DNA from: a virus
Lineage: Duplodnaviria > Caudoviricetes
Virus record (IMG/VR): IMGVR_UViG_3300025735_000004
Span: 17,710 to 81,709 of that record
Length of the DNA: 64,000 nt
Direction: 5' to 3' (one strand)
Each line of letters opens with the position of its first letter. Positions within the stretch are counted from its first letter, which is position 1. Positions 242-28,238 of this stretch are shown piece by piece. The translations under genes were made by a program, and so were the position numbers. The notes beneath the pieces are model-generated. The model was given only the letters and a program-made list of their open reading frames with translations, was not told the origin of the DNA and did not search any database.

Positions 242-270
242 TATTCATAGTTCATAATTCACAATTCATG
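242..270. repeat. Heptad tandem array (RRTTCAY) no. 1
   Basis: tattcat agttcat aattcac aattcat g, intergenic. Confidence 0.85.
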
Positions 271-278
271 TTTCCGAC

Positions 279-647
279 TCAGTGCCCGGTCTGCCCTTCG
301 GGGCGGGACATCAGGTGGGCAAGGCGCTGCGTAGCGTACTGGTCAATTTCGGTCAGGATCGCGTCGACCCACTGTTGCGCTGCCTCGCCACCCTCGTTGA
401 ACTTGCCCAACATCAGTTTCATCAGCGTCTGACAGATCGCGTACTGCGCCTGTTCGGTTTCGTGGATCTGGCCAGCCGTGGCATTGGCGGGGATGATCCC
501 CACCCGGTAGGCGGCGATGAGGTCCGCGATCGACTGCGCCCCCTCAAGCATCCCTTTCATTTGGTTCATGCGGCGCAGCGTTTCGGGGTTCTGTGCCGCG
601 CTTGCTTGTATCCGGCGCAGCATCGCTTCTTTGTCTTGTAAGTCCAT
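279..647 (-). CDS. Hypothetical helical protein
   Basis: 122-aa ORF co-oriented with neighbours, typical codon usage. Confidence 0.7.
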   Translation of the reverse strand: MDLQDKEAMLRRIQASAAQNPETLRRMNQMKGMLEGAQSIADLIAAYRVGIIPANATAGQIHETEQAQYAICQTLMKLMLGKFNEGGEAAQQWVDAILTEIDQYATQRLAHLMSRPEGQTGH

Positions 648-669
648 GCGGGTCGTCCTTTTCAGGTGG

Positions 670-1254
670 TTACGCGAGCTGGATGCGATTCATCGTCCAG
701 CCAAACACGTACTTCTTGTTTTTCGGCCTTGCCTCGGTGCGGCCGAGGTAATACACCGCTTGCTGACTATTGATCAGGGCCAGCAGGCAGTGTTCGCCCT
801 GTGCCTTGCGCAGCGCCAGAAAGGCATCCAGGGCGATAAAGCTCTGTGGCCCCAGGTTGCCGTCCGGCTCCAGCTGAGGGTAGTTTACCTTACCGTCACC
901 GTCCGGGTCGTTCAGCGCGTTGAGCGCACGTTGCAGGAACGTCGCGGCCTGGCCCGGCGGCAGGTTGACCTCGATTTCAAACAGCTCGGCGGCCAGTCGG
1001 TGGCTGCGCAGCAGCACCTGGTCGAAGTGCGGCTTGACGAAGTAGTTGCGCAGGTACAGCAACTCGGCGCTGTCGCGGGGGTAGTCCTTCATTGCCCCCA
1101 TGTAGCCGTCAGCGCGGGCCGCCGCTTCGGTCACCCCCCAACGGGTCGCACCCCCGGCGTCATTCGCGTCGATCTTGCCGCCGCCGTCCCCCTCGATGCC
1201 GATCAGCTCGGCAATGATCTTGTCGATTTCCGGTGTGCGTGTGATCAGCCCCAT
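670..1254 (-). CDS. Endolysin, glycoside hydrolase family 108 with C-terminal peptidoglycan-binding domain
   Basis: EG...DAGGATRWGVT, FLQRALN, DGNLGPQS and YVFGWTMNRI motifs typical of GH108 phage lysozymes; aggag RBS upstream. Confidence 0.9.
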   Translation of the reverse strand: MGLITRTPEIDKIIAELIGIEGDGGGKIDANDAGGATRWGVTEAAARADGYMGAMKDYPRDSAELLYLRNYFVKPHFDQVLLRSHRLAAELFEIEVNLPPGQAATFLQRALNALNDPDGDGKVNYPQLEPDGNLGPQSFIALDAFLALRKAQGEHCLLALINSQQAVYYLGRTEARPKNKKYVFGWTMNRIQLA

Positions 1255-1281
1255 GGTGACGCTCCTTTCTTATTGTTTTGG

Positions 1282-1566
1282 TTATTGCACGATCTCAATT
1301 TCAACCCACTCACTGCGCAGCTTCACGTCAGGCCCGAACTCGATGACGACCTGCAACCAGTAGCTGCCATACAGCGGCATGTCCCCAACTTTTGTGGTGT
1401 AACGCACCACCCCCGTTGCCGCGTTCAACACCGTCAACGCGGACGTAATGGTCACCCCCGCAGCATCCCGAATGTCCAGGGACAGCGCGGTCTTGTCGGT
1501 CAGGTCCACCCCCGCCGTGATGTCGATGTCGATGCCGTAGGTGTTGCGAAAAATCTTGATAGTCAT
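1282..1566 (-). CDS. Small virion protein, BppU N-terminal-like beta domain
   Basis: DLT...NAATGVVRYT...GD...G.YWLQV pattern; start moved to MTIKIF with ggag RBS. Confidence 0.55.
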   Translation of the reverse strand: MTIKIFRNTYGIDIDITAGVDLTDKTALSLDIRDAAGVTITSALTVLNAATGVVRYTTKVGDMPLYGSYWLQVVIEFGPDVKLRSEWVEIEIVQ

Positions 1567-1578
1567 GGGGCGCTCCAC

Positions 1579-3042
1579 TTAGGCGGTGTCGACCGTGACG
1601 CTGAAACCGGCACTGGTCTTGGTGCTAACAACAAGGGGGAGGACTGGCACGGCCCCGACCACGGCCACTGTCGTGAGCACGGCTGCGGAAGTGGTGAATT
1701 CGGCAGGGCTCAGTGACCCGGTGGTGGTGAGCCTGGCTGCCGCGGTGGTGTGGCTTTGCTGATTGCTCTTGAGCGCGATCCGCGTGGTCAAACCGGCCGA
1801 GGCCCCTGGCTGGTCCAGCAGGCCGGCGCGCAAACCCGCGACCGCCGCCGCGAGCCTGGCAGTCGCTGTGCTGTGGCTACTGGCGTTGACCTTGAGCAGG
1901 CTCTGCGTGCCGAGGCTGGCCGTTGCATTGGCTTGGCCAGCCAAGGCCGCGAGCAACCCGATCTGTGTGGTGAGCCTGGCGGTCGCGGTGACCTGCACAC
2001 TCACCGTGGCGCCCATGTTGTCGTGCGTGGTCAGGCTGGCCGTGGCTGCACTGACGCCGTGGGCACCCACCTGCAGCGCAATCGCGGTGGTGAGCGCGGC
2101 GCCCACCGACACTTGGCCAGCGGCGGCGGCCTTTGGACGGATCGCGGTGGTAATGGCGGCACTGAGAGTTGATGCACTGCTACCGTTCGCTTTCGGGCGG
2201 ATCGCCGTGGTGAAAGCGGCACTCACCGTTGTCGAGCTACTGCCGTTCGCCTTCGGACGGATCGCCGTGGTCAACGCCGAAGTTGCAGTCACCTGGTCGG
2301 CAGCGTTCGCCTTCGGGTGAATCCCGGTGGTCAACGCCGCCGTGCGCGAACACACGCTGCTCAGTGCCGCCGCCAAATGGGCGGCTGGGCTCTTGAACAC
2401 CAGGTTGTCGTCGAAGTCAACAAACGCCGCGTGGTTGCTGACCGTCGCGTTCAGCGTGGCGTTTTCTGTGGTGCCGTCGAAAAAGAAGTCCGCCGTATAG
2501 GCCGAGGCAGCGCCTTGCAAAAGCGCCGGCCATACCTCGCAGATCAGCACATCGCCGTCGAGCGCCATGATCATCGTGCCGGGCGTGTTGTACGACCCCC
2601 AGTCGACTTTCTCGGTGTTGGCCGCAGAGGGTGGTGCCACGCCCGTAAGCGGAATCGAGTTCCCAGGCCCCTCAAGCAACTTCCCCACCACCGCCCCGGT
2701 GGACGGACGCCACACGTACAGGCAGGTAGTCAGGTACTGGCCCAGGTTCATTTGGGTGTTTGACTGGGTTAACGCGACGTTCAACCGGAAAACAGCGGTC
2801 ACGGATTGGTTGCCGTTTAACGGGGGGCTGGCGAAGTACCCCATGAACGGCAGTTGCAGGGCGGTGTTTGCCAGCGAGGTGCCGGACAGTGAAGCCTGCG
2901 CCGTGCCGATGGTGGTGTTCATCGTGCGCAGGGTGGCCGCGCCGGTGGCACTCCAGCTCGGCGTAGCCGAAGACTGCGGGCCGGTGGGGAAGGTGCCCGC
3001 CGCAGTGTTAGAGGCGTTGTGTAAATAGAGTTTGGTTGTCAT
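1579..3042 (-). CDS. Putative virion/tail-associated protein with C-terminal ~21-aa Ala/Thr repeats
   Basis: 487 aa; repeated A(A/R)LTT..(RP)KA units; 63-bp DNA periodicity at about 2080-2340. Confidence 0.65.
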   Translation of the reverse strand: MTTKLYLHNASNTAAGTFPTGPQSSATPSWSATGAATLRTMNTTIGTAQASLSGTSLANTALQLPFMGYFASPPLNGNQSVTAVFRLNVALTQSNTQMNLGQYLTTCLYVWRPSTGAVVGKLLEGPGNSIPLTGVAPPSAANTEKVDWGSYNTPGTMIMALDGDVLICEVWPALLQGAASAYTADFFFDGTTENATLNATVSNHAAFVDFDDNLVFKSPAAHLAAALSSVCSRTAALTTGIHPKANAADQVTATSALTTAIRPKANGSSSTTVSAAFTTAIRPKANGSSASTLSAAITTAIRPKAAAAGQVSVGAALTTAIALQVGAHGVSAATASLTTHDNMGATVSVQVTATARLTTQIGLLAALAGQANATASLGTQSLLKVNASSHSTATARLAAAVAGLRAGLLDQPGASAGLTTRIALKSNQQSHTTAAARLTTTGSLSPAEFTTSAAVLTTVAVVGAVPVLPLVVSTKTSAGFSVTVDTA

Positions 3043-3072
3043 CCCCTTTCACCTCGACGAAGGTGAAGTGGA

Positions 3073-3513
3073 TTAGTTGTCGATCTGGAACGTCAGGTCG
3101 CCGATGGCAAACACTGGAGCCGGGTCACCGTTGTTGACCGTCTTGCTGACCGTCAGGGCGCTGTAGAACAGCATGTTGCCCGAGGTCGACGCATCCATCA
3201 CGGCCATGCCGGTCACCGTGCCCCAGTTGGCGGTCGGAGTCGGAAAGGTGATCGTGGCGTTGTTCGACGTGGTGCCGCCGGTGCCGCTGGAGGCGGTCGT
3301 GCTGCCCGCACTTTGGGTGCCGGCCCAGTTGGCTAGGCTGTTGGTCACCGCGACCCGCGCATAACTGCCGCCAGTGGCCTCGGTGCCCCCGGAGGTGTCG
3401 GTGGGGTTGGCGGTAAACAGGGCGATGTAGAGCGTGGACGGAAAGGTGTAAGCCTGGCCGCGAAACAGCTGATCGATCAGCTTGTTTTCCAGGTAGTCGG
3501 TCATTGCGCCCAT
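3073..3513 (-). CDS. Conserved phage tail-associated structural protein
   Basis: M(T)DYLENKLID...LYIALFTA.P...GGSYARVAV...SN.ATITFP.PT.NWGTVT...DA...GN.L pattern common in phage tail regions. Confidence 0.7.
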   Translation of the reverse strand: MGAMTDYLENKLIDQLFRGQAYTFPSTLYIALFTANPTDTSGGTEATGGSYARVAVTNSLANWAGTQSAGSTTASSGTGGTTSNNATITFPTPTANWGTVTGMAVMDASTSGNMLFYSALTVSKTVNNGDPAPVFAIGDLTFQIDN

Positions 3514-3645
3514 GAAGCACCCCAAAGTAGGTCGTGTGAAGTACGCGGTCCTACGTTGGGGCCGCTTGCCATTAAAGCGTAGGTTACGACCCCGGATTTC
3601 GCTTAAATTTCATAGCTCTAGGTGTCTAAACCAACGCTTTTGGGA

Positions 3646-3936
3646 CTACGCCGCGTGTTGCGCGGTGACCACGGCGGTGAGTTGGCCAACCCGTTCCGCC
3701 AAGCGCGACAGGCGCTGCTCAAAGATGTGCTCAAACTCGCCTTTGCCTTCCTCGCGCAGGGCGGTCAGGGCGTCGGGCATGGTCATCGGCACGATCAACG
3801 CTCGGGTGCTGTCGGGCAGGCTGGCCATGTGGGCCTCTGCTTCGTCGCGGTGGGTGTAAACCCCCGCCACCACAAGGGCTTCGCGTACTTCGTCCAGCCG
3901 GTAGAGCACCAGTGCTTCAGGTGTGATTTCGCTCAT
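3646..3936 (-). CDS. Hypothetical protein, first gene of the leftward operon
   Basis: 96-aa ORF followed upstream by AT-rich non-coding DNA. Confidence 0.6.
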   Translation of the reverse strand: MSEITPEALVLYRLDEVREALVVAGVYTHRDEAEAHMASLPDSTRALIVPMTMPDALTALREEGKGEFEHIFEQRLSRLAERVGQLTAVVTAQHAA

Positions 3937-4210
3937 GGGGAGACCTATGCAAAAAATCAGCTCGGCCGTCTTCGGTTGGGTGAAACACTCGCGGCCTTGG
4001 GTTAAAGACTAGGCGAGGATCGCGAAAAAATTTTGCGTTGCTTCAAAATCGAGGCAACGGAGGCCTCAAAAGCGGGTGTTTTACCCCCTCTTCGAAAGTT
4101 TTTTTAACTATTTTTTCGGTTGTACTGGGAACCTTTTCTGACAAGGCTTTGACGCCAGAGATTGTCCGACAAAACAGGGCGTTTTGATGGCACTTTTGTG
4201 AATGTCAAGG

Positions 4211-4244: not shown

Positions 4245-4275
4245 TCAATGCTCCGTATCCTATTGACCATAAACG

Positions 4276-9729: not shown

Positions 9730-10012
9730 AGCCCTTTGTTTTCAAGGGGGTCAGTCTTGAATTTCTGGACTACTTGTTTAGAAACTCAAGACTTTTTACT
9801 TGAATAAATGGCCATATCCAAGTGTTATGTATAGAATTTGTGCTTAAATTCAACGAAACCGTTTTGAAGTTCAAGTGATTGGTCTTGAAATTGCCCCATG
9901 ATTTCAACGTTTGCGCTGAGAAGTTCTAACAAAACGGTGCGAAAACACCCCCCAAATTCAAGAGTGGGGGCCAGAATACCCCAACGAATCCAAGAAATGA
10001 CTGGAATTCAAC
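9730..10012. other. Putative replication origin (AT-rich, repeated short TTCAA/TTGAA boxes)
   Basis: About a dozen (A/T)TTCAA(G/C)-like boxes in both orientations in AT-rich DNA directly upstream of rep. Confidence 0.5.
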
Positions 10013-10639
10013 GTGACTGAGAAGAAAAAGTCCTACTACACCTCCCGGGCCGACGTGGTGCCCACTCGACATAACCCATGGGCGGGTGAGTTGGCACACA
10101 CGATCAAGAAAGGGAACAAGGTCACCGGCTTTGCCAGCTCCAAGCACGCCTTGGTGAACCAAGCTACCGGCGAGGTGATGACGGACGACATCGCCCTGGT
10201 GGGGGTGCGCAAGGTAGTGGACAAGGAAGAGTTCATCAAGTTTTTCGGGGCAGGGATCATGGAGGTGTTCGAACTGACCACCCCGGCCAAAGACGTGTTC
10301 AAGGCGATCCTGAACGTGTACTTGGACCAGAAAAACCAGCCGGATCAGCTGTACCTGAACTACGACGAAATCAAAGAGATTTATGGCTACGGAAAGTCGC
10401 CCTCGACCTACTACAACGGTCTGAACGAACTGATCGTGAAAGGCTTCTTGGCCCCGGTGCAGTTCCGCGAAAGCCACTACTGGGTCAACCCGAACCTGTT
10501 CTACAAAGGCGACCGTATCCGTATCGTGCGCGAGTACGTGCGCGCCGGGACCAAGGCGGCCAAGCAGGTGGAGAAGGAGAACGCCGCGCTGAATCAGCTG
10601 GGGCTGCCGCTCGATGGCCCCATCATCGACACGGTATAG
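10013..10639 (+). CDS. Plasmid-type replication initiator (RepL/RepA-like winged helix)
   Basis: VNQATGEV...VDKEEFIKFF...AKDVF..IL...STYYNGLNELIVKGF...YWVNPNLFYKGDR pattern of RepL-family initiators. Confidence 0.75.
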   Translation: MTEKKKSYYTSRADVVPTRHNPWAGELAHTIKKGNKVTGFASSKHALVNQATGEVMTDDIALVGVRKVVDKEEFIKFFGAGIMEVFELTTPAKDVFKAILNVYLDQKNQPDQLYLNYDEIKEIYGYGKSPSTYYNGLNELIVKGFLAPVQFRESHYWVNPNLFYKGDRIRIVREYVRAGTKAAKQVEKENAALNQLGLPLDGPIIDTV

Positions 10640-15039: not shown

Positions 15040-15120
15040 AACCAAACGGCGTACCAGTTAATTGTGTTTGACCGCCTAAACCGGTACAACACTAACTGGC
15101 ACCCTAAACCAGTACAAGGA
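15040..15120. promoter_or_regulatory. Putative res site of the serine resolvase
   Basis: Inverted gtaccagtta / taactggcac and direct taaacc(g/a)gtacaa repeats (15077, 15105) immediately upstream of the resolvase. Confidence 0.5.
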
Positions 15121-15126
15121 GGCCCT

Positions 15127-15777
15127 ATGGCCAATTCTCTACCGTTGGTGCGGGCGTACTTGCGCGCCTCCACCGCTGAACAGGATGCACAACGCGCCCG
15201 CGGCGCGCTGCTTGCATTCGCCGACGCTCATGGCCAGCGAATCGCTGGATTTTACCCAGAGAACGAAACCGGGACGAAACTCAACCGCCCGGAACTGTTC
15301 CGCCTGCTGAACGACAGCCAACCCGGCGACATTCTGCTGTGCGAACAAGTTGACCGGTTGAGCAGGTTGACCGAGGCCGATTGGTTGAGCCTGCGCGGAA
15401 TCATCCAGACCAAGGGCCTGCACATTGTGTCGCTCGATCTGCCGACTTCGCACCAGCTCATGGCCGGACTGGGCGAGGAAACTTTCGCCGGGCGCATGCT
15501 CGGCGCGATGAACTCGATGCTGCTCGACATGCTCGCGGCCATTGCGCGCAAGGACTATGAAGACAGGGTGCGCCGCTCCCGCGAAGGGATTGAGAAAGCC
15601 CGGAAAATTCCAGGCAAGTACAAGGGGCGCATCCCTGACCTGGTGCTGCACGCCCGTGTCAAGTCGTGCCTGGAAGCCGGGATGGCGATTCGCAAAACGG
15701 CCACGGTGTGTGACTGCTCGAAAACCACGGTGCAGAAAATCAAGGCGGAACTGGACAAGGAGACCGAGGCCGCCTGA
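15127..15777 (+). CDS. Small serine recombinase (resolvase/invertase) with C-terminal HTH
   Basis: RAYLRASTAEQD, RPELFRLL...GD.L.....DRLSR, KYKGR, HTH; aaggagg RBS. Confidence 0.93.
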   Translation: MANSLPLVRAYLRASTAEQDAQRARGALLAFADAHGQRIAGFYPENETGTKLNRPELFRLLNDSQPGDILLCEQVDRLSRLTEADWLSLRGIIQTKGLHIVSLDLPTSHQLMAGLGEETFAGRMLGAMNSMLLDMLAAIARKDYEDRVRRSREGIEKARKIPGKYKGRIPDLVLHARVKSCLEAGMAIRKTATVCDCSKTTVQKIKAELDKETEAA

Positions 15778-16009
15778 CCAACTATGAACGGATCAATCGA
15801 GCCGTTTTCCGGGGGGTTGAAGCCCCCCGGCCTTTGAAGGGATCAATCTGTCCTTTTTTGGAGCCCGCAGGCCGTGGGTGCCTTGCCGGAGGCACCCCCT
15901 TTGTTCTCTATATAAAAGAAATAATTTTTTATTTTTATAAGACGGTAAGGGCACGCTCTATTTTGTACCGTCTCGCACACTTTAAAAAGCTGACCCGGAA
16001 ATCAACAAA

Positions 16010-16052
16010 AATCTAGTTGACTAGTTTAAAACCCAAACTAGATGACTAGTTT
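16010..16052. repeat. Two palindromic CTAG-N4-CTAG boxes 25 bp apart
   Basis: aatctagttgactagttt and aaactagatgactagttt. Confidence 0.7.
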
Positions 16053-16407
16053 GAAGCCCAATATCCGACCTCGTTTCAACTCGCCCTTTTCCATTTCCCC
16101 TTACAAATCAACAGGTAGCCTAATGGTATGCGAGATGGGTCAACCCCCGAGCGTATGTTTTGCGGTATGCCTCGGGTAGGGGCAAAACGCCTTTCCCCGA
16201 AATGCAAGCAATATCGTTCGCCTACCTTGCCTTTTTTCGCGTTCCGGTGCTTCCGCTCGACCATTTACCCATTTCCGACCCATCGCTTTTTAGCCGGCAC
16301 CCACTTGCCGCAAAAACGCAGCAACGCCTATGAAGGCGACAAACCCCCCGGAACCCCCAAGGCCCGGCCGACCCCCCCTGTCACAACCGCCAACAAGGAA
16401 CCGCACC

Positions 16408-16737: not shown

Positions 16738-17184
16738 ATGACCTATGAAGACGACGACGCCGTGTTGCGCGCCGCCCTGCAGATCGCCGAACGGCGCCTG
16801 ACCTACACCGGCTGCGTCCTCACCAGCCCGCAGGTGGTGCGCGACTACCTGCAGGTGTGGGCTGCGCGCCTGACCGAGGAAGCGTTCGGCGTGCTGTGGC
16901 TGACCAGCGCCCACGAGCTGGTGCAGACCGAGGTGCTGGCCACCGGTTCGATCGATCAGGCCACGGTCTATCCGCGGGTGGTGGTGCGGGCCGGGATCGC
17001 GCACAACGCGGCGGCCTGTCTGGTGTTCCACAACCACCCCAGCGGCAACCCCGCGCCGAGCGGCGGCGACATCGCCCTGACCCGGCGCTTGAAGGAGGCG
17101 TTGGCCATGGTCGACATCACCCTGCTCGATCACCTGGTGGTCGGCCGCACCATTGTCAGCCTGGCCGAACAGGGGGTGCTCTAG
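16738..17184 (+). CDS. radC: RadC-like JAB domain protein
   Basis: E.F...L...GSID...VYPR.V...A......HNHPSG...PS..DI..T.RL......DI.LLDHLVVG. Confidence 0.92.
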   Translation: MTYEDDDAVLRAALQIAERRLTYTGCVLTSPQVVRDYLQVWAARLTEEAFGVLWLTSAHELVQTEVLATGSIDQATVYPRVVVRAGIAHNAAACLVFHNHPSGNPAPSGGDIALTRRLKEALAMVDITLLDHLVVGRTIVSLAEQGVL

Positions 17185-17231
17185 GAAGGGTTCGAATACA
17201 TACGCTACATACCACGTACTACGTAGTACGA

Positions 17232-17272
17232 CATGAACCATGAATTCACAGTTCATGGTTCACAATTCACAA
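17232..17272. repeat. Heptad array no. 2
   Basis: catgaac catgaat tcacagt tcatggt tcacaat tcacaac. Confidence 0.85.
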
Positions 17273-17286: not shown

Positions 17287-17523
17287 ATGACCACCACCCT
17301 CCTGAACCACTGGGACCGTATCGCCCAGCTGATCTACGCCCTGCTGCTGGACTACCTGCCCCGTCAGCTGGCCGCTGTGCTGGCCATGCTGTGGCCGATG
17401 TTCGTTGTGCTGCTGGTCATCCTCATCGTCGGCGGGCTGCTCGCCTGGCAGGACCGCCGCGACCTCAACCGCCGCGTTCACCGGCGCCTGGCTCAGCTGC
17501 GCGACGAACGCCGCGACCGCTGA
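17287..17523 (+). CDS. Small membrane protein
   Basis: One long hydrophobic segment and a basic tail. Confidence 0.6.
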   Translation: MTTTLLNHWDRIAQLIYALLLDYLPRQLAAVLAMLWPMFVVLLVILIVGGLLAWQDRRDLNRRVHRRLAQLRDERRDR

Positions 17524-17528
17524 GCCGA

Positions 17529-17560
17529 CATGAACCATGAACCCGTAATTCACAATTCAT
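17529..17560. repeat. Heptad array no. 3
   Basis: catgaaccatgaacccgtaattcacaattcat. Confidence 0.8.
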
Positions 17561-17575
17561 AGAAGGAAGCACCCC

Positions 17576-18043
17576 ATGAAAACCTTGCACGACGCCCACG
17601 CCCTGACTGACTACGGCCTCAACCCGCTGACCGGCGAGGCCGACGCCTATTCCCGCCGTACCCTGTGCGACCTCAGTGATGAAGGGATCATTCTGCTCAC
17701 CGCCTACTTCGGGCTGGCCCACACCAAGGCCGCCGGGCAGGCGTTCCCGAAGAACTACAACAGCAGCGTGGGGGACAAGCCGGCGGTGGCCAGCGTGATG
17801 CTGGCCCGTGGCACCATGGACGATTTGATGGTGTTCGCCCTGCTGCACGTCGATCAGTTCGACTACGTGATGCAGACCCCGGGCGGCTACGCCGGCTTCA
17901 ACGACGGCGACCAGTACGGCGAGCACTACCTGCACGCCGCCCTGCCCGAGGGCTACCGCCTGCACTACAACGCCGCCAAGCGCAGCGCCCACCCGCACGT
18001 CGGGGACCGCAACGTCCACGCGATGAGTGGCAGGGTTCTCTGA
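17576..18043 (+). CDS. Hypothetical protein
   Basis: 155 aa, gaagga RBS. Confidence 0.75.
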   Translation: MKTLHDAHALTDYGLNPLTGEADAYSRRTLCDLSDEGIILLTAYFGLAHTKAAGQAFPKNYNSSVGDKPAVASVMLARGTMDDLMVFALLHVDQFDYVMQTPGGYAGFNDGDQYGEHYLHAALPEGYRLHYNAAKRSAHPHVGDRNVHAMSGRVL

Positions 18044-18053: not shown

Positions 18054-18072
18054 CGGCAATATGCCGTATAAT
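18054..18072 (+). promoter_or_regulatory. Operator palindrome adjoining a TATAAT -10 box
   Basis: cggca ata tgccg followed by tataat, upstream of the RHH gene. Confidence 0.5.
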
Positions 18073-18105
18073 TTCCGTACATTCCCACCAGAAAGGAGCA
18101 CCACC

Positions 18106-18324
18106 ATGACCCGCATGACCCTCGACCTGTCCGATGAAATCGACCAGAAGCTCACCGCCATCGCCAAGGAACGCGGCATGACCAAGGCTGAAGCGATGCG
18201 CAAGGCCTTTGCCCTGCTGGTCATCGCCGATAACGAAGCGCGCAAGCCCGGCTTCTCGCTGGGCATCGTGCGTGAACGCGACGACCACACCCTGGAAGCG
18301 GTTGGCCGCGTGGTGGGGCTGTAA
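18106..18324 (+). CDS. CopG/ribbon-helix-helix DNA-binding protein
   Basis: MTRMTLDLSDEIDQKLTAIAKERGMTKAEAMRKAF. Confidence 0.85.
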   Translation: MTRMTLDLSDEIDQKLTAIAKERGMTKAEAMRKAFALLVIADNEARKPGFSLGIVRERDDHTLEAVGRVVGL

Positions 18325-18578
18325 TGGACAAGTTCGATACCGACATGAACCGCGTGTTCACCGACCCGGGCGGCGTCAACGTCAATGCCCTCGACCGCCT
18401 GCGCTTTGCCAAGCAGGTGTTGCTGGGGCTGGCCTTGATCTGTTCCGCGGTGTTCATCGCCTACGGGCTGGAACCGGACAACGCCGGGCTCGGCCATATC
18501 TTTGAACTGATCAAGATCGGCGCCTTGCCCCTGGTCACCTTGGTGATCTCGTTCTACTTCCCCAGTTCGACCAAGTAA
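18324..18578 (+). CDS. Two-TM membrane protein coupled to the RHH gene
   Basis: TAATG overlap; two hydrophobic helices. Confidence 0.75.
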   Translation: MDKFDTDMNRVFTDPGGVNVNALDRLRFAKQVLLGLALICSAVFIAYGLEPDNAGLGHIFELIKIGALPLVTLVISFYFPSSTK

Positions 18579-20642: not shown

Positions 20643-20651
20643 GCCGCTGGC

Positions 20652-20683
20652 CATGAATTCACGGTTCACAATTCACAATTCAC
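20652..20683. repeat. Heptad array no. 4
   Basis: catg aattcac ggttcac aattcac aattcac. Confidence 0.85.
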
Positions 20684-20702
20684 CCAAGAAGGAAGCACTG
20701 CC

Positions 20703-20984
20703 ATGCCCACCCAAACCACCCTGTTCGCCCTGTTCAAAGTCGCCGACGTGATCGAAATCGACGGCTACGAAGTCGATAACTGCGCCTTCCTGCCCAACGA
20801 CGTGGTGCGGCTCGACTACTGCCACGACGACGAGCGCACCTGCTTTGTGGACCAGCCGGTCAGCCTCGATGACGGCGCCTGCCAAGCCGTTTCCTGCGAC
20901 GACCCCCAGTATGGCGGTGAAGCCGGGGATACCTGCGACCTGACCTTCAAGGTCACCCGCCTGCTGCAACCCGAGGATCTGTGA
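20703..20984 (+). CDS. Hypothetical acidic protein
   Basis: 93 aa, cactgccatg start. Confidence 0.7.
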   Translation: MPTQTTLFALFKVADVIEIDGYEVDNCAFLPNDVVRLDYCHDDERTCFVDQPVSLDDGACQAVSCDDPQYGGEAGDTCDLTFKVTRLLQPEDL

Positions 20985-21005
20985 ATTCACAATTCACAAT
21001 TCACA
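20981..21005. repeat. Heptad array no. 5
   Basis: gtg aattcac aattcac aattcac a, overlapping the preceding stop codon. Confidence 0.85.
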
Positions 21006-21030
21006 AACCACCCGAGAAGGGACCACCGCA

Positions 21031-21204
21031 ATGAACCCGATTGACCCCAACTTCGTACAGTTCTGCCGGGGCTTGACCGACAAGCAACTGGAAAACGTCC
21101 TCGCGGACGAATGGAGCGCCCACAAACACCGTGACTACGCCTCGGCGCAGCAGGCGGCCGTGGAACGCGGCTGGACCGTGCAAGATGGCCAGCGCATCAA
21201 CTAA
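21031..21204 (+). CDS. Small hypothetical protein (57 aa)
   Basis: Hand translation MNPIDPNFVQFCRGLTDKQLENVLADEWSAHKHRDYASAQQAAVERGWTVQDGQRIN; gaaggga RBS. Confidence 0.65.
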   Translation: MNPIDPNFVQFCRGLTDKQLENVLADEWSAHKHRDYASAQQAAVERGWTVQDGQRIN

Positions 21205-21209
21205 CCCGC

Positions 21210-21243
21210 CATGAACCATGAAGTCACAATTCATGGTTCACAA
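21210..21243. repeat. Heptad array no. 6
   Basis: catgaac catgaag tcacaat tcatggt tcacaa. Confidence 0.85.
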
Positions 21244-21664: not shown

Positions 21665-21672
21665 CGCCCACC

Positions 21673-21703
21673 GTGAATTCACAATTCACAGTTCACAGTT
21701 CAC
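21673..21703. repeat. Heptad array no. 7
   Basis: gtg aattcac aattcac agttcac agttcac. Confidence 0.85.
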
Positions 21704-21742
21704 AAACCGCAACACACCCACCCCGAAAGAAGGATCACTGCC

Positions 21743-22450
21743 ATGAACCTGATTCAAGTGAAAAGCTGGAACATCGAACGCGGCCAAGACATCGACGCCG
21801 CCATGCTGATGGGCAGTTTCACCCGCTACCTGTACCGCGATCTGGACGCGGTGGAAGTGCCGGGTAGGCCGTCGTTCCACGAGGGTATCGAAACCAGCTT
21901 CGACCGCCTGCACGGCGGCTGCCTGTTCCTGTCGTTCACCGCCTTGGCCGTGCTGGAAGAGTTGATCGACTGGGACAAGTGGGGCGAGTTCGGCGGCGGG
22001 GTGTTCGCCTACGAGCACTTGGAAGCCGACGATACCCAGCCCTATACCGAGGGCACCGACCTCGCCGCCTTCCTGCTGCGCGAGATCCCCGCAGTGGCCT
22101 GGTACGAGATCGCCGAAAACTGGGACGTGCCCAACGACACCGAGCTGACCGACCTGCTGACCCGCTGGGCGGTGGCGGTCAAATTGCCGTTGGTGGACAG
22201 TGCCGTGCCGCTGCCCGCTGAGGCCCCCGTGCTGTTAGCCGAGGCCCCCGAGCCGGAGCGCCGCTGCGACTCCTTGCCCTACGACTTCGAAGACTTCGGC
22301 CTGAACCTCACCGAGTTGCAGGACAAGTACGCCACCGAGCAGGAACACCCCGAGTACCCCAACGGCCGCTGGGGGAGGGAGGCGCCCACGACCCCCTACT
22401 GGGACTGGGTCATGGCCTGCATCGCCAAGGATGACGACGACACCGAGTAA
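21743..22450 (+). CDS. Hypothetical acidic two-domain protein
   Basis: 235 aa; C-terminal EHP.YP...W...YWDWV module. Confidence 0.75.
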   Translation: MNLIQVKSWNIERGQDIDAAMLMGSFTRYLYRDLDAVEVPGRPSFHEGIETSFDRLHGGCLFLSFTALAVLEELIDWDKWGEFGGGVFAYEHLEADDTQPYTEGTDLAAFLLREIPAVAWYEIAENWDVPNDTELTDLLTRWAVAVKLPLVDSAVPLPAEAPVLLAEAPEPERRCDSLPYDFEDFGLNLTELQDKYATEQEHPEYPNGRWGREAPTTPYWDWVMACIAKDDDDTE

Positions 22451-24421: not shown

Positions 24422-24422
24422 C

Positions 24423-24629
24423 ATGCGCATTCTCCCTGTCATCACCAGCCGCAACCCGAGCAGTCGCCCCGAAAACGACACGCTGCTGCACTGCTACGTC
24501 TGCCCGCTGCAGGCCACCTTCAGCACGGCAGCGGCCACCGGCTGGACCTTCGACGCGGACGGGGAACCGTTCCGCACCTACTACTGCCCGGCTCACCGGC
24601 CGGACCCACGCAAAGAGAGGCAACCATGA
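24423..24629 (+). CDS. Small Cys-containing protein
   Basis: CYVC...YCPAH. Confidence 0.55.
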   Translation: MRILPVITSRNPSSRPENDTLLHCYVCPLQATFSTAAATGWTFDADGEPFRTYYCPAHRPDPRKERQP

Positions 24630-25231
24630 AACGCCCAATGAGCAACGATGAACTGCTCCATCACATCATGCTGTACAGCAAGCACGGCTCGCTGATGCAG
24701 CTGATCGTGATGGAAGGGATACGCAACTACGCCGAAGCGATCGTGGACGCCGAGCCAGGCTTTCTCGGTACCGCCGCGCTGATGTTCAACGAAGACGACT
24801 GGCGCAACTGCTGCCGAGAGCTGCTGGACACGCTGGCCAACCGCGGGCAGCTGATGACCGAGGAAATCAGCGTGGAAGTGGAACTGGAGGACTTCACTCC
24901 GGCGGCCCATGAAGACCCCGAAAAGGCCGGGCTGCTCAAGACCCTGCTGCACCTGGTCGGCCAAGGCTGGCAACCGGTCGAGCTGTACGACTCGGAAGAA
25001 TGGCGCAACTTCAAAGCAGGGGCGCCGCTGCCGGACGTGGTTGAGGCCTGCGCGGAAGTCGAAATGGCGACCCTGCGCCTGCGCCACTGGGACGGCCGCA
25101 CTGGCTCGCTCGGGCTGGTGTGGGGCAACAGCCCGCTTGAACTGATCGCCGACCACACCACCGACCACGGCTTTGACGAAGCGGTTGCCGCCGCCCAGCG
25201 CAGCGTGTGGCCCAACTACCCGGAGGAATGA
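24626..25231 (+). CDS. Hypothetical two-module protein
   Basis: 201 aa; ATGA overlap. Confidence 0.7.
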   Translation: MKRPMSNDELLHHIMLYSKHGSLMQLIVMEGIRNYAEAIVDAEPGFLGTAALMFNEDDWRNCCRELLDTLANRGQLMTEEISVEVELEDFTPAAHEDPEKAGLLKTLLHLVGQGWQPVELYDSEEWRNFKAGAPLPDVVEACAEVEMATLRLRHWDGRTGSLGLVWGNSPLELIADHTTDHGFDEAVAAAQRSVWPNYPEE

Positions 25232-25232
25232 C

Positions 25233-25496
25233 ATGAGCAAGGAAGAACTGTTGGCCCAGGCCATTCAGGCCGGCGCCTCGATAAGCGAATTCATCAACAA
25301 GTTCGTGGAGCTGAACCCCCCGAGCGAGCGTGAAGTCGCGCTGATCAACAAGGCCCGAGAGCAGTACGTCAACGAGGGCGTGCTGGAGATTGACGAGCCC
25401 ACCATTGCATCCATCGGCGACGACCCCGGTGGCTACGTGCTGGCGTGGGTATGGGTCTACGACAAGGTCGATGACGAAGAAGAGGAAGAGGGCTGA
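25233..25496 (+). CDS. Hypothetical acidic protein
   Basis: LEID...S...GGYVLAWVWV motif. Confidence 0.7.
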   Translation: MSKEELLAQAIQAGASISEFINKFVELNPPSEREVALINKAREQYVNEGVLEIDEPTIASIGDDPGGYVLAWVWVYDKVDDEEEEEG

Positions 25497-25499
25497 GCC

Positions 25500-25724
25500 A
25501 TGTGGAAGTGCCCGGAATGCCACAGCCATCACCTGAACGTGATGATCACCACCTGCGCCAAGTTGTTGCAGTACGAGGACAACTTTGAAACCGAGGTGGC
25601 CGGCGACCACGAGTGGGACGACACGTCGAACATGACCTGCGAAGACTGCGGGCACTGCGATGCCGCGTTGCACTTTGACACCGACCAAGATGAACCAACA
25701 CCTGAGAAGGAACCGCAACCATGA
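25500..25724 (+). CDS. Small zinc-ribbon protein
   Basis: CPEC ... CEDC. Confidence 0.7.
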   Translation: MWKCPECHSHHLNVMITTCAKLLQYEDNFETEVAGDHEWDDTSNMTCEDCGHCDAALHFDTDQDEPTPEKEPQP

Positions 25725-26161
25725 GCACCTGGCACCAAGACAAAGCCCCCGTGAACCCGCAACACCCGTTCAACTGGACGGTGTACACCAACCCGCCGAA
25801 CCGCTCGGCCTCGGCGATGGCCTACCCCACCCAGGCCGAGGCCGAGGCGTTCATGGAACGGCTCAAGGCCGCCGTGAAGCCCGACGATCTGGAACGGCAG
25901 CTCGCGCTCAAGCACACCCGCATCCTGCCGCCGGTGTACACCAACGACCAGCGCCACGAACTGTTCTACGACGTGCGCAAACCCAGCGGCCAGCTCGGTT
26001 ACGTGAAGAAGGAACACATCGAGCGCTTCCTGCTGGAGCTGTGCGGCGGGGGCATGGACGCCAAGCAGACGGCCAGCGCCATGCAGTACGGCGGCGAGTT
26101 GAAGTTGAACACCCGTGTCGTCGTCAAGGGGCACAAGATCGGCCCGGTCGGGACGGTGTGA
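25721..26161 (+). CDS. Hypothetical protein
   Basis: 146 aa; ATGA overlap. Confidence 0.7.
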   Translation: MSTWHQDKAPVNPQHPFNWTVYTNPPNRSASAMAYPTQAEAEAFMERLKAAVKPDDLERQLALKHTRILPPVYTNDQRHELFYDVRKPSGQLGYVKKEHIERFLLELCGGGMDAKQTASAMQYGGELKLNTRVVVKGHKIGPVGTV

Positions 26162-26162
26162 C

Positions 26163-26360
26163 ATGCACAAACCCATCCTGATCGCCACGGACGGGCGCAA
26201 GAACGGCCTGGAAGCCTGGGCGCTGTACGACGACACCATCCCGGGCTATGAGCTGTTCGCCAGCCAGGCCTGCAACGATTACTTCGGGGATGCCGACACC
26301 CTGGAAGACTGCAAGAAAGTCGCGCAAGCCTGGTTTGACCAGCGCGCCAGCGAGCAATAA
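26163..26360 (+). CDS. Small hypothetical protein
   Basis: Starts MHKPILIA. Confidence 0.65.
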   Translation: MHKPILIATDGRKNGLEAWALYDDTIPGYELFASQACNDYFGDADTLEDCKKVAQAWFDQRASEQ

Positions 26361-26449
26361 CCCCCGCACCACCCCGTAACCCCAAACCCCAATAAGGCCA
26401 GCCAACTACCCCGGCAGGCCTACTCTTGCCTGTAGAAAGGAGAATCACC

Positions 26450-27292
26450 ATGCAACGCGCCCTTAGCCGTAACTTCGCTCACAACGCCAACTCGCTGCGC
26501 AGCGAAATCGCCCTCACCGACGACCAGATTTTCCGGGTCGCCCCCTCGATCTTTGCGCAGGAACCACACGGCTCCCGCAGCGAACGCTATGCCTACATCC
26601 CGACCATCGACGTGCTCAACGGCCTGCGCAAGGAAGGCTTCGAACCCTTCGCCGTGGTGCAGTCCAAGTGCCGGCTGGAAGGTAAGAGTGAGTTCACCAA
26701 GCACATGATCCGCATGCGCCACGCCAACAACATCCTCGCCCCGCAGGCCAACGAGATCATCCTGCTCAACAGCCACGACGGCACGTCGTCCTATCAGATG
26801 CTGGCCGGGTGTTTCCGCTTCGTCTGCCAGAACGGCATGATTGCCGGCGACATCCTGGAAGACATCCGCATTGGCCACCGCGGTGACGTGATGGGCAACG
26901 TGATCGAGGGTGCCTACACCGTGCTGCAGGGCTTCGACCTGGTGGATGAATCCCGCGAGGTGATGCAACAGACCCGCCTCAGTCAGGAGGAACAGGCGGT
27001 GTTCGCCCGCTCGGCGCTGATGCTGCGCTACGACACCGAAGACGCTGGCAAGGCGCCAATCCAGGCCGACCAGCTGCTGCGGCCACACCGCCGGGAAGAC
27101 ACCGGCACCGACCTGTGGACCACCTTCAACGTCGTGCAAGAGAACGCCTTGAAAGGCGGGCTGCGGGGCCGCACGGCCAACAACCACCGCACCACCACCC
27201 GTGCCGTCACTGGCATCACCCAGGACATGAAACTCAACCAGGCCCTGTGGGCACTGGCCGAGGGCATGCGCCAGCTGAAAGCCGCCGCCTGA
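26450..27292 (+). CDS. DUF932 family protein
   Basis: APSIFA...SRSERY.YIPT..VL..L..EGF.P...KHMIR.R...EIILLNSHDGTSSYQMLAG.FRFVCQNG...DLW.TFN.VQEN...LN.ALW.LAE. Confidence 0.9.
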   Translation: MQRALSRNFAHNANSLRSEIALTDDQIFRVAPSIFAQEPHGSRSERYAYIPTIDVLNGLRKEGFEPFAVVQSKCRLEGKSEFTKHMIRMRHANNILAPQANEIILLNSHDGTSSYQMLAGCFRFVCQNGMIAGDILEDIRIGHRGDVMGNVIEGAYTVLQGFDLVDESREVMQQTRLSQEEQAVFARSALMLRYDTEDAGKAPIQADQLLRPHRREDTGTDLWTTFNVVQENALKGGLRGRTANNHRTTTRAVTGITQDMKLNQALWALAEGMRQLKAAA

Positions 27293-27375
27293 CGGCGGGC
27301 ACGTTGGAACCGGACGCTGCTGGTAGACTGTCGGTCTACCCGCAGCCCCCTCCACCCTTTAAGTGACTCACTGCC

Positions 27376-28002
27376 ATGAGCAAAAAACCGATCGACCCCG
27401 CCCGACTGATCCCCGTCGAGCAACTGCCCGCCCTGCGCCAGCAGGCCGAGGAACAAGCCCACGTCAACGTCGACCGCCTGAACGCCAAGACCCGCAGGGC
27501 GGCGACCTTGGGCGATGACGCGATGGAGATTGCCCGACTGCCCCTCAGTCAGCGCATTCGCTACAACAAACTGGTCAAACTGGTGGATGCGGCCAGCGCC
27601 GACATCATGCCGTTCACCGCCTGCCGCAAGGGGTGCAGCCACTGCTGCAACATCGCGGCGTTGATTTCCGATGTCGAAGCGCAGCGCATTGGCGAAGCGA
27701 TCGGACGCAAACCGGTGAAGACCGGCGCGTTTCCGGCCGATGTCCCCGCGCTGCAGAAGAAATACTTTGGCGTGCCTTGCACCTTCTTGAAGGGCGGGCG
27801 CTGCTCGATCTACGAGGTTCGCCCGCTGGCCTGCCGGCTGCACTTCAGCATGGCCGACGACTCGTTCTTCTGTTCCACCGCGATCGCCCCGCAGAACAGC
27901 CTGGTGCCGGCGCTCAACCTGCAGGGCGTCGACCGGGCGCTGTTTATGATGACGCTCGGGTCGATGCACGCGGACATCCGCGACTTCTTTCCGAAGAGGT
28001 GA
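27376..28002 (+). CDS. YkgJ-family cysteine-cluster (Zn/Fe-S) protein
   Basis: C.KGCS.CC ... C.FL....CSIYE.RP..CR. Confidence 0.85.
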   Translation: MSKKPIDPARLIPVEQLPALRQQAEEQAHVNVDRLNAKTRRAATLGDDAMEIARLPLSQRIRYNKLVKLVDAASADIMPFTACRKGCSHCCNIAALISDVEAQRIGEAIGRKPVKTGAFPADVPALQKKYFGVPCTFLKGGRCSIYEVRPLACRLHFSMADDSFFCSTAIAPQNSLVPALNLQGVDRALFMMTLGSMHADIRDFFPKR

Positions 28003-28005
28003 GGG

Positions 28006-28134
28006 GAGGGGCAAAGGCCGTGTCTGTCCGCTCTGGCTAATCGCGCATCTTTCAGCGCGGTAGACGCAACCCCGTCCGTTCTGCGTGAGTGCCGGCTTAT
28101 GGGGAGAATTCGTCCGGCAGCACCTTTGCCCCTC
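28006..28134. other. Multi-branched inverted-repeat structure
   Basis: 12-bp closing stem gaggggcaaagg/cctttgcccctc enclosing three shorter hairpins. Confidence 0.45.
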
Positions 28135-28190
28135 GCTACAACTCTAGGCCAACCTGTCCGGTCGAGCAAAGCACGCCGACAGGCGCTTTC

Positions 28191-28238
28191 CATGAACTCA
28201 TAATTCACTATTCACATATATGAATTGCGTATTCATGG
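28191..28238. repeat. Heptad array no. 8, upstream of parA (candidate centromere/operator)
   Basis: catgaac tcataat tcactat tcacata tatgaat tgcgtat tcatgg. Confidence 0.75.

What the first reader, a model, noticed from the sequence alone, without database searches (positions are those of the whole stretch)
242..28238. Eight dispersed heptad arrays, one at the parA promoter: a partition protein that may double as regulator of the accessory array
Seen: tandem 7-bp units (AATTCAC/AGTTCAC/GGTTCAC/AATTCAT, often preceded by inverted CATGAAC units) occur at 242-270, 17232-17272, 17529-17560, 20652-20683, 20981-21005, 21210-21243, 21673-21703 and 28191-28238. All are at gene junctions, and the last sits just upstream of a short ParA and an 81-aa RHH-like partner. 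Known: in type Ib partition, pSM19035 omega (an RHH protein) binds direct and inverted heptads 5'-WATCACW-3' that act as both centromeres and promoter operators. The unit here (ATTCACA) differs from AATCACA at one position. Inference: 28940-29185 binds these arrays, so segregation would be wired to control of six junctions in the accessory cluster and one in the virion/lysis operon. Alternative: the arrays are microhomology hot spots for cassette exchange.
Basis: partly seen in the sequence, partly recalled or inferred. Interest (0 to 1): 0.82.

Follow-up and report, generated by a model that had tools for sequence, protein, structure and literature searches.

The report
Dispersed ParB-type heptad arrays in a phage-plasmid
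An uncultured 82-kb Pseudomonas-type phage that probably lives as a plasmid carries eight arrays of one 7-bp repeat. The same repeat flanks the homologous ParA/ribbon-helix-helix partition genes of unrelated plasmids, so the phage's small partition protein most likely binds all eight sites, which may tie plasmid segregation to control of accessory and late genes.

Summary
The 81.7-kb genome holds exactly eight arrays of contiguous 7-bp units (best register 5'-TTCAYRR-3', about 41 units). A two-unit pattern matches 17 times against 0.01 expected. The arrays keep their positions in three related metagenomic phages.

The 81-aa protein at 28940-29185 has a C-terminal ribbon-helix-helix fold behind a flexible N-terminal part. 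Its gene overlaps the end of a 213-aa ParF-like ParA. This is a type Ib partition pair.

The key new evidence comes from ten unrelated plasmids that share only these two proteins with the phage. All ten have 7-bp repeat arrays next to the pair. The Pseudomonadaceae plasmids (four Pseudomonas, one Azotobacter) use the phage's own heptad in the same inverted-then-direct layout, overlapping the parA promoter. A sixth, from P. juntendi, uses TTAATAA.

The assignment "partner binds the heptads" is well supported, though only indirectly. A regulatory role at six accessory-gene junctions and at the lysis/packaging junction remains an inference. No sigma-70-like promoter is recognisable there, and a purely centromeric role is a live rival.

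The system works like omega of pSM19035, KorB of RK2 and the dispersed centromeres of N15. It is a new variant of a known kind. The scan had already noted this same stretch in another reading.

The parts
244..271 (+). Array 1: four contiguous TTCAYRR units on the + strand, antisense to the flanking genes. It lies between the lysis cassette and the leftward late (packaging/structural) operon.
   Evidence: conserved in G001, G002 and G003; neighbouring genes
17231..17272 (+). Array 2: two inverted plus four direct units, between radC (16738-17184) and a 78-aa gene starting at 17287.
   Evidence: orthologous arrays in G001 and G002 differ only at the degenerate Y/R positions
17528..17562 (+). Array 3: two inverted units, one degenerate unit and two direct units, upstream of the gene 17576-18043.
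   Evidence: arrays precede the orthologue in G001 and G002
20651..20685 (+). Array 4: one inverted plus four direct units, upstream of the gene 20703-20984.
20979..21006 (+). Array 5: one inverted plus three direct units. The stop codon of the upstream gene lies inside the inverted unit. It precedes the gene 21031-21204.
21209..21243 (+). Array 6: two inverted units, one degenerate unit and two direct units, upstream of the DUF3846 gene (start 21269).
21671..21705 (+). Array 7: one inverted plus four direct units, upstream of the gene 21743-22450.
28190..28238 (+). Array 8: seven contiguous units (<>>><>>), two of them degenerate. It overlaps the -10 of a sigma-70-like promoter (28176-28204) for parA and is the likely par operator and centromere core.
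   Evidence: conserved in G003 and shortened in G002
28306..28947 (+). parA: a 213-aa Walker-type ATPase without an N-terminal DNA-binding domain (type Ib, ParF-like).
   Evidence: Pfam AAA_31, MipZ, CbiA, VirC1; best solved relative is ParF of TP228, aligned over the full length; PHROG ParA-like
28940..29185 (+). Partner: an 81-aa protein with a flexible N-terminal part (helix 10-22, near-invariant K19) and a C-terminal RHH (strand about 35-41, helices 42-58 and 65-75). It is the proposed heptad-binding centromere protein and repressor.
   Evidence: its homologues always lie just downstream of a ~213-aa ParA

Best explanation
The window belongs to an uncultured tailed phage of about 82 kb. 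It is probably a phage-plasmid.

Dimers of the 81-aa RHH partner bind cooperatively, one per 7-bp unit, to contiguous TTCAYRR heptads.

The seven-unit array over the parA promoter acts as the autoregulated operator and core centromere. The seven other arrays (about 34 units) are further binding sites for the same protein. Together they form a dispersed centromere on which the partner's N-terminal tail stimulates ParA.

Because they sit directly upstream of the ribosome-binding sites of six accessory genes and at the head of the late packaging operon, they probably also lower expression of those genes while the partner is abundant, that is in the plasmid-prophage state. This could work by promoter occlusion or as a roadblock.

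Shown here: the arrays, their conservation, the RHH fold, the ParA type, and the co-occurrence of the heptad with this protein pair in unrelated replicons. Inferred: binding itself, centromere activity and any effect on transcription.
For: - The arrays are far beyond chance, and these eight are the only ones in the genome.
- All spacings are 7 bp in the TTCAYRR register.
- The arrays are conserved at the same three kinds of place in three relatives. Substitutions are confined to degenerate positions and unit numbers vary.
- The partner has an RHH fold. The AF2 model shows an extended segment followed by two helices, and the structure list is dominated by RHH proteins, including pCXC100 ParB (Z 3.5) and omega (Z 3.2).
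- Distant homologues pass the Pfam RHH_1 cut-off.
- ParA is ParF-like.
- Ten plasmids share only ParA (42-48% identity) and the partner (36-59%) with the phage. All ten have 7-bp repeats within about 150 bp upstream of parA or just after the RHH gene.
- The phage heptad is 33-fold enriched in those flanks (34 per 2470 bp against 14 per 33473 bp, Fisher 4e-29).
- Among 210 composition-matched permutations, only phase shifts of the phage heptad are enriched, with a mean of 0.6 for all permutations.
- Pseudomonas plasmids show the same RTGAA|TTCAY-plus-direct-units layout, lying over the spacer and -10 of parA promoters.
- One of them, pPA1045-2, also has two sites 3.5 kb from par, in front of another gene.
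- The strand residues vary along with the heptad type: VTISLP or ITISLP with TTCAYAA, RTTISL with TTCATAC-type units, NISVSLP with TTAATAA.
Against: - There is no binding data.
- The AF2 model is only moderate (pLDDT 70.5), and fold Z-scores are low, as expected for a 45-residue domain.
- No sigma-70-like promoter is recognisable at the accessory or late arrays, so the route to regulation is unclear.
- The shared orientation and position of the accessory arrays could be inherited through duplication of a junction module rather than selected for control.
- Within the phage family, par and arrays always occur together wherever the sequence reaches, so co-occurrence cannot be tested there.
- Two complete plasmids have arrays only beside par, so dispersal is not a general family trait.
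- The covariation table rests on eleven loci.
Confidence: 0.6

Rival explanations
1. Centromere only. The partner binds all eight arrays, but they serve solely as a dispersed partition site, as RHH ParB proteins need many sites to build a complex. Their place at gene junctions only reflects where insertions are tolerated, and transcription is not affected.
For: - Type Ib plasmids in the sample carry from a few to about 20 repeats beside par, whereas the phage has only seven there, two of them degenerate. The dispersed units could make up the number.
- No promoter is recognisable at the seven distal arrays.
- N15 has four separate centromere sites (PMC7205306).
Against: - All six accessory arrays, and about a dozen in relatives, have the same polarity and end 2-27 nt before a ribosome-binding site.
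- None lies in the many other intergenic gaps of the replication or structural modules.
- A Pseudomonas plasmid has par-distal sites 23-80 bp before another gene's start.
- In omega and KorB the same sites serve both roles (PMC9499535, PMC11790492).
Confidence: 0.2
2. Recombination modules. The arrays are chiefly microhomology or site-specific recombination sites, for example for the serine recombinase at 15064-15777. They mediate gain, loss and exchange of accessory cassettes.
For: In the 17-21.5 kb region, twelve homology-block boundaries with G001 and G002 fall within about 10 nt of an array-plus-leader module. Gene content between arrays differs among relatives. A resolvase or invertase-type recombinase lies 1.5 kb upstream.
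Against: - Breakpoints also fall at junctions without arrays.
- Serine-recombinase sites are not tandem heptads (general knowledge, not tested).
- The same heptads sit at the par loci of ten plasmids that share only ParA and the RHH protein with the phage.
- The arrays at the parA promoter and the late junction are not cassette borders.
Confidence: 0.07
3. Expression signals that do not involve the par protein: promoter elements, mRNA hairpins or unstructured G-poor translation enhancers in the 5' leaders of accessory genes.
For: - The arrays abut ribosome-binding sites.
- TTCACA and CACAAT resemble -35 and -10 hexamers, and four units space them 17 bp apart (read from the sequence).
- Arrays 2 and 6 can form 11-13 bp RNA hairpins (z -2.4 and -2.6).
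- Tandem AATTCAC runs lie directly before start codons in some unrelated viral contigs.
Against: - Four of the six accessory arrays show no significant RNA structure.
- Array 1 is antisense to its genes.
- The promoter scan finds nothing at the accessory or late arrays.
- In plasmids the heptads also lie downstream of the RHH gene.
- The exact 19-mer occurs more than 120 times in genomes of unrelated phyla, so such runs are background tandem repeats.
Confidence: 0.08
4. Another phage DNA-binding protein binds the arrays, for example the second RHH at 18106-18324 or the MvaT-like pair at 33294-34102.
For: The protein from 18061-18324 passes Pfam RHH_1 (20.6 bits). MvaT-type proteins prefer AT-rich DNA, and the arrays are AT-rich islands in a 62% G+C genome.
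Against: - The second RHH has no homologue (E 3.8 or worse) in the complete relative G002, which has at least eight arrays.
- The plasmids with the same heptads share neither that protein nor the MvaT-like proteins with the phage.
- The MvaT hits are below the Pfam cut-off.
- Strict 7-bp phasing points to a sequence-specific repeat binder.
Confidence: 0.05

Closest known systems
Omega (ParB) / delta (ParA) of pSM19035, inc18 plasmids of Firmicutes
   Same: Both have a small RHH protein with a flexible N-terminal tail paired with a ParA. Both bind contiguous 7-bp units in direct and inverted orientation. Both have several arrays per replicon (six parS sites of 7-10 heptads in pSM19035) that act as centromere and promoter operator at once. 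In pSM19035 at least four contiguous units are needed to activate ParA (PMC9499535). All eight arrays here hold at least four unit positions, though arrays 3 and 6 are broken by a degenerate unit.
   Different: No detectable sequence similarity, only a shared fold (Z 3.2). The unit is TTCAYRR, not WATCACW, and the register that makes the arrays contiguous is shifted by one base. The arrays are shorter (4-7 units). The host is a Gram-negative phage. The distal arrays lie inside a long same-strand gene cluster without recognisable promoters.
ParF/ParG of TP228 and the ParA/RHH pairs of gammaproteobacterial plasmids, including the parC1-parA-parB-parC2 layout of pB171 par2
   Same: ParA is closest to ParF among solved structures. 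The partner is homologous (36-59% identity) to the RHH proteins encoded just after ~213-aa ParA genes in Pseudomonas, Azotobacter, Serratia, Erwinia, Yersinia and E. coli plasmids. Those plasmids carry 7-bp repeats upstream of parA and downstream of the RHH gene, as in parC1 and parC2 (PMC4270457).
   Different: In plasmids the repeats flank the operon. Here most units are spread over 28 kb. ParG itself recognises tetramer boxes with AT-rich spacers (PMC3130281), not heptads. The link of the E. coli IncI-gamma/K1 example to pB171 rests on the divergent parM layout and on my memory; it was not verified.
KorB of IncP-1 plasmid RK2
   Same: A partition ParB that is also a global repressor, acting through operators scattered over the replicon (PMC11790492, PMC5577506).
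   Different: KorB is a large HTH/CTP-dependent sliding-clamp ParB with palindromic 13-bp operators. It has no RHH domain and no heptads, and it is carried by a plasmid rather than a phage.
Sop system of the linear phage-plasmid N15
   Same: A phage-plasmid whose centromere consists of separate sites (IR1-4) rather than one cluster (PMC7205306). From memory, not checked here: some sites lie in late regions and the Sop system affects late gene expression (Ravin, Rech and Lane 2008).
   Different: Type Ia system with an HTH SopB and single inverted repeats. It has four sites, against eight arrays and about 41 units here.

Membership tests
Type Ib ParABS partition module | Small Walker-type ParA (about 200-215 aa) without an N-terminal DNA-binding domain | tested here: met
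   213 aa. Pfam AAA_31, MipZ and CbiA. Full-length match to ParF of TP228, E 2.4e-10.
Type Ib ParABS partition module | Centromere-binding protein is a small RHH dimer with a flexible N-terminal part, encoded directly after parA | tested here: met
   The genes overlap (28940 against 28947). AF2 shows an extended 35-41 segment and helices 42-58 and 65-75. The structure list is dominated by RHH proteins at low Z, 4.6 or less. The phage protein scores 18.1 bits for Pfam RHH_1, below the cut-off, but distant homologues score 21.5-24.8 bits, above it.
Type Ib ParABS partition module | Array of short repeats next to the operon, overlapping its promoter | tested here: met
   Seven contiguous heptads at 28190-28238 overlap the -10 of the promoter-like site at 28176-28204.
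Type Ib ParABS partition module | The RHH protein binds the repeats, stimulates the ParA ATPase and stabilises the replicon | not testable with these tools
   Only comparative support: the heptads co-occur with the pair in ten plasmids.
Omega (pSM19035) family | Sequence homology to omega | tested here: not met
   A profile of the partner family finds no PDB chain at E up to 10. Only the fold is shared (Z 3.2, 18% identity).
Omega (pSM19035) family | Contiguous 7-bp units in direct and inverted orientation, several arrays per replicon | tested here: met
   All spacings are 7 bp in the TTCAYRR register, across eight arrays.
Omega (pSM19035) family | Consensus 5'-WATCACW-3' | tested here: not met
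   The unit is TTCAYRR (ATTCACA in omega's frame). Only the TCAC core is shared (PMC9499535).
Omega (pSM19035) family | Arrays overlap the promoters of the regulated operons | tested here: inconclusive
   Holds for parA. No sigma-70-like promoter is found at the seven other arrays. A consensus scan cannot exclude weak or factor-dependent promoters.
Phage-plasmid | Tailed-phage structural and lysis genes together with plasmid maintenance genes, and no integrase | tested here: met
   Terminase, portal, protease, head, tail and endolysin genes. ParA plus partner. A serine resolvase. No tyrosine integrase in the complete genome. A repeat-rich region lies before 10013-10639, but that protein matches no family. 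Extrachromosomal maintenance itself is not testable here.

The most novel reading that the evidence does not exclude
In this phage family the ParG/omega-type centromere protein is the master switch of the plasmid-prophage state. By coating about 41 heptads in eight arrays it partitions the genome, shuts off a block of plasmid- and ICE-type accessory (possibly anti-defence) cassettes after entry, and gates the packaging/structural late operon. Loss of partition protein or of copy number would then feed directly into the lytic decision. This would be the first RHH-based global circuit of its kind in a phage.
Probability: 0.2. Interest if true: 0.78.

Novelty: new variant of a known kind. Interest (0 to 1): 0.6.

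Why it matters
Partition proteins that double as global regulators are known from a few plasmids (omega, KorB). N15 hints at such a link in a phage-plasmid.

This would be a type Ib RHH version inside a tailed phage. Its binding sites can be read directly from the sequence, at the par promoter, at six accessory-gene junctions and at the head of the late operon. That makes a concrete question testable with simple assays: how does a phage-plasmid couple segregation, accessory gene expression and the lytic programme?

The work also defines, by comparison alone, the likely recognition unit (TTCAYRR) of a widespread gammaproteobacterial ParA/RHH family. At least 1220 plasmid records carry homologues of a distant member of that family. 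The analysis also gives a first hint of how strand residues covary with the heptad.

No deposited phage genome encodes a homologue of the partner.

Tried and rejected
- Megablast of 16-30 kb against phages found nothing. Against plasmids it found only the DUF932 gene.
- Searching IMG/VR for the 19-mer TTCACAATTCACAATTCAC gave 29 contigs. Only one is a relative. The others share no proteins with the window and have no par genes near the repeats.
- The same 19-mer occurs more than 120 times in bacterial genomes of unrelated phyla. Such runs are background tandem repeats, not evidence for or against the finding.
- The search for related loci with the second RHH, with the partner profile in genome contigs, and with distant-homologue alignments in IMG/VR gave nothing.
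Annotated plasmids were used instead.
- Foldseek against the PDB gave only weak MetJ hits. The wider VIA search was needed.
- A common RNA structure for the arrays was rejected: only two of six fold significantly, and array 1 shows no structure on the minus strand.
- The sigma-70 promoter idea (TTCACA, 17 bp, CACAAT) was not supported by the scan.
- pB171 records and the 2001 pB171 paper were not available.
Full report
**1. The observation**

Reading the eight stretches confirms tandem 7-bp units at the stated coordinates.
- The two-unit pattern RRTTCAYRRTTCAY matches 17 times in the window. The expectation from dinucleotide-preserving shuffles is 0.01.
- The window is bases 17710-81709 of an 81,709-base IMG/VR virus record with terminal repeats. 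The whole record has the same 17 matches, and the backwards control gives none.
- A looser cluster scan finds exactly eight arrays in the genome.

Taking the C of each TTCAY core as a marker, direct units are always 7 bp apart. The inverted-to-direct junction is 5 bp, or 12 bp where a degenerate unit intervenes. If the unit is written 5'-TTCAYRR-3', every junction becomes exactly 7 bp, including RTGAA|TTCAY. The arrays are therefore uninterrupted strings of heptads:
- one or two inverted units followed by two to four direct ones at the six accessory junctions
- four direct units at 244-271
- seven units (<>>><>>) at 28190-28238

That makes about 41 unit positions, three of them degenerate.

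**2. The setting**

A composition-based gene call and family searches give the following picture.
- Phage genes: endolysin, head and tail proteins, tape measure, primase, family A DNA polymerase, Dda-like helicase and SbcCD. The part of the genome outside the window adds large terminase, portal, protease and major head protein.
- Lifestyle: no tyrosine integrase anywhere in the complete genome, a small serine resolvase at 15064-15777, and a repeat-rich region before 10013-10639. A phage-plasmid lifestyle is plausible.
- Closest cultured phages: Pseudomonas phages Lana and PMBT3, with only 32% identity in the terminase.
- Gene cluster 16.3-28 kb: all on one strand, with genes typical of plasmids and ICEs (RadC, DUF3846, DUF5983, DUF932, a CxxCxxCC protein) among many unknowns. 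Its junctions share a C/A-rich leader and ribosome-binding site. Six of them carry a heptad array between the previous stop codon and that leader.
- Array 1: it lies between the lysis cassette and the first genes of the leftward late operon, and its units are antisense to those genes.
- Array 8: it overlaps the -10 of the only sigma-70-like promoter found near parA.

**3. Relatives**

The partner protein and the heptad pattern led to three related metagenomic phages:
- G001: 60 kb fragment
- G002: 84 kb, complete
- G003: 72 kb fragment

Arrays occur at the same three kinds of place in these genomes: the lysis/late junction, the parA promoter and several accessory junctions. Orthologous arrays differ in unit number and at the degenerate Y/R positions, while the TCA core is kept.

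G002 has one extra array downstream of par. G001 ends before the par region and G003 begins inside the accessory block, so neither tests co-occurrence.

Homology blocks between the genomes break at the array-plus-leader modules, and also at other junctions.

**4. The partner and ParA**

ParA (28306-28947) is 213 aa. Its best solved relative is ParF of TP228, aligned over its full length.

The partner (28940-29185) overlaps the end of parA.
- Its close homologues (64-95% identity) come only from contigs of about 82-83 kb or from short fragments. The segment SITISLPKS and the second helix are invariant among them.
- AF2 gives a helix at 10-22, an extended segment, and helices at 42-58 and 65-75 (pLDDT 70.5).
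- A structure search not dependent on Foldseek returns almost only RHH proteins, all at low Z (4.6 or less). They include TraM, PutA, NikR, antitoxins, MetJ, Arc, pCXC100 ParB at Z 3.5 and omega at Z 3.2.
- An exhaustive profile search finds 52 distant clusters of 75-120 aa proteins. Several pass the Pfam RHH_1 cut-off. They share an N-terminal L-A-D-R/K-P-Y-G motif and a C-terminal ISLP...NKR...GPKTVS motif.

**5. The decisive comparison**

tblastn against annotated plasmids finds homologues of the partner in 47 records. It finds homologues of a distant family member in 1220 records. In every case examined the match lies directly after an ATPase gene of about 213 aa.

Ten loci from Pseudomonas, Azotobacter, E. 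coli, Serratia, Erwinia and Yersinia share with the phage only ParA (42-48% identity) and the partner (36-59%). All ten have 7-bp repeat arrays within about 150 bp upstream of parA or immediately after the RHH gene.

The Pseudomonadaceae plasmids (four Pseudomonas, one Azotobacter) use the phage's own unit and layout.
- Pseudomonas sp. TMP25: TTATGAA|TTCACAA|TTCATAA.
- Strain ANT_J7: TTGTGAA|CTCACAA|TTCATAA, plus a run of AATTCGC/AATTCAC units.
- P. aeruginosa plasmids: ATATGAA|TTCATAA|TTCATAT, lying over the spacer and -10 of the parA promoter.
- TMP25 also has four direct units covering the end of the RHH gene.

The statistics agree.
- The phage heptad is 33 times denser in these flanks than in the rest of the loci (34 per 2470 bp against 14 per 33473 bp, Fisher 4e-29).
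- Among 210 permutations with the same base composition, only the phase shifts of the phage unit are enriched. TTCACAA scores 11, against a mean of 0.6 for all permutations.

The Enterobacterales proteins have R-T-T-I-S-L in the strand and TTCATAC, CCCATAC or TTAATAC-type units. A P. juntendi protein with N-I-S-V-S-L-P has TTAATAA units. This is a hint of covariation, on few loci.

Plasmid pPA1045-2 also has two sites 3.5 kb from par, 23-80 bp before the start of a large coiled-coil gene.

**6. Rivals**

- The second RHH (18106-18324) has no homologue in the complete relative G002, which keeps its arrays.
- A shared RNA structure is not supported. Only arrays 2 and 6 fold significantly.
- The promoter scan finds nothing at the seven distal arrays.
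- Tandem AATTCAC runs in unrelated viral contigs and in more than 120 bacterial contigs of many phyla are background tandem repeats.
- Recombination at the arrays is compatible with the synteny breaks, but it does not explain the link to par loci in plasmids.

**7. Reading**

The most likely account is that the partner binds one dimer per heptad, as omega does on its WATCACW heptads. In pSM19035, six parS sites of 7-10 units overlap three promoters, and four contiguous units are needed to activate ParA (PMC9499535).

Array 8 would be the operator and core centromere. The other seven arrays would be additional binding sites that enlarge the partition complex. Given their fixed place before ribosome-binding sites and at the head of the late operon, they probably also damp expression in the plasmid state.

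My estimates:
- the partner binds the arrays: about 0.8
- the arrays act as centromere: about 0.65
- they also regulate neighbouring genes: about 0.45

**8. Comparison and novelty**

The pair belongs to the type Ib class and is homologous to plasmid ParA/RHH pairs. It is not a sequence relative of omega, and its unit differs from omega's.

The idea of a partition protein acting as global regulator is known from omega and KorB (PMC11790492). Dispersed centromeres are known from N15 (PMC7205306).

Three things are new here: an RHH/heptad version in a tailed phage, most units lying far from par, and sites at accessory cassettes and at the late operon. No homologue of the partner is found in 50,697 deposited phage genomes. 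I class it as a new variant of a known kind, with interest 0.6.

Noticed in passing
window 28240-28305: Between array 8 and the parA start lies a conserved stem-loop that pairs CTCACCA with TGGTGAG. It sequesters the only Shine-Dalgarno-like GAGGG of parA. The arms are kept in G002 and G003 while the following T-run is not. The fold is not significant against shuffles (z -1.35). It may be a translational control element or attenuator of parA.
   Followed up: partly
window 15900-16330: A 430-bp AT-rich non-coding region ahead of the accessory cluster. A terminator-like hairpin sits at 15876-15897 and there are two copies of TGACTAGTTT(A/G)AA around 16020-16050. It is probably the main early promoter and operator of the cluster, and it carries no heptads.
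   Followed up: no
window 18106-18578: A second RHH protein (Pfam RHH_1, 20.6 bits) is followed by an 84-aa hydrophobic protein. The pair is present in G001 (68% identity) and absent from the complete relative G002. It is possibly a small addiction or regulatory module.
   Followed up: partly
window 16300-36600: Many gene junctions share a stereotyped C/A-rich leader, then AAGGA/GAAGGAA, then (t)CACTGCC or ACCGCAAGC before the ATG, with or without heptads. Homology blocks with relatives break at these junctions, which suggests cassette-like turnover.
   Followed up: partly
window 9740-10030: A dense set of TTCAAG/CTTGAA boxes and other repeats lies upstream of the 208-aa gene 10013-10639. That protein matches no Pfam or PHROG family. 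The region is a candidate iteron origin with a novel initiator.
   Followed up: partly
window 33294-34102: Two adjacent proteins have weak matches to the MvaT C-terminal DNA-binding domain (19.4 and 25.1 bits, below the cut-off of 27). This fits a Pseudomonas-type host.
   Followed up: partly
L004 6700-6753, L007 7837-7899, L021 1946-1991, L028 3256-3306: In unrelated viral contigs, tandem AATTCAC/AATTCAT runs abut start codons of structural or unknown genes, some with no Shine-Dalgarno sequence. The exact 19-mer also occurs more than 120 times in bacterial genomes, mainly Bacteroidota, Chloroflexota and Acidobacteriota. This is probably background heptanucleotide repeats and was not explained further.
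   Followed up: partly
L183 31143-31210 (P. aeruginosa plasmid pPA1045-2): Two RTGAA|TTCAY sites lie 3.5 kb from the par operon, 23-80 bp upstream of a 504-aa gene annotated as ZapB-like. The plasmid RHH ParB may also regulate a gene outside par.
   Followed up: partly
G002 reverse-complement 28079-28102 (inside L037, the G002:C1:40001-60000 stretch): The complete relative has an extra array plus a small extra gene, inserted ahead of a conserved non-coding region that in the window lies at about 30650-30730 without an array. The arrays move together with cassettes.
   Followed up: no
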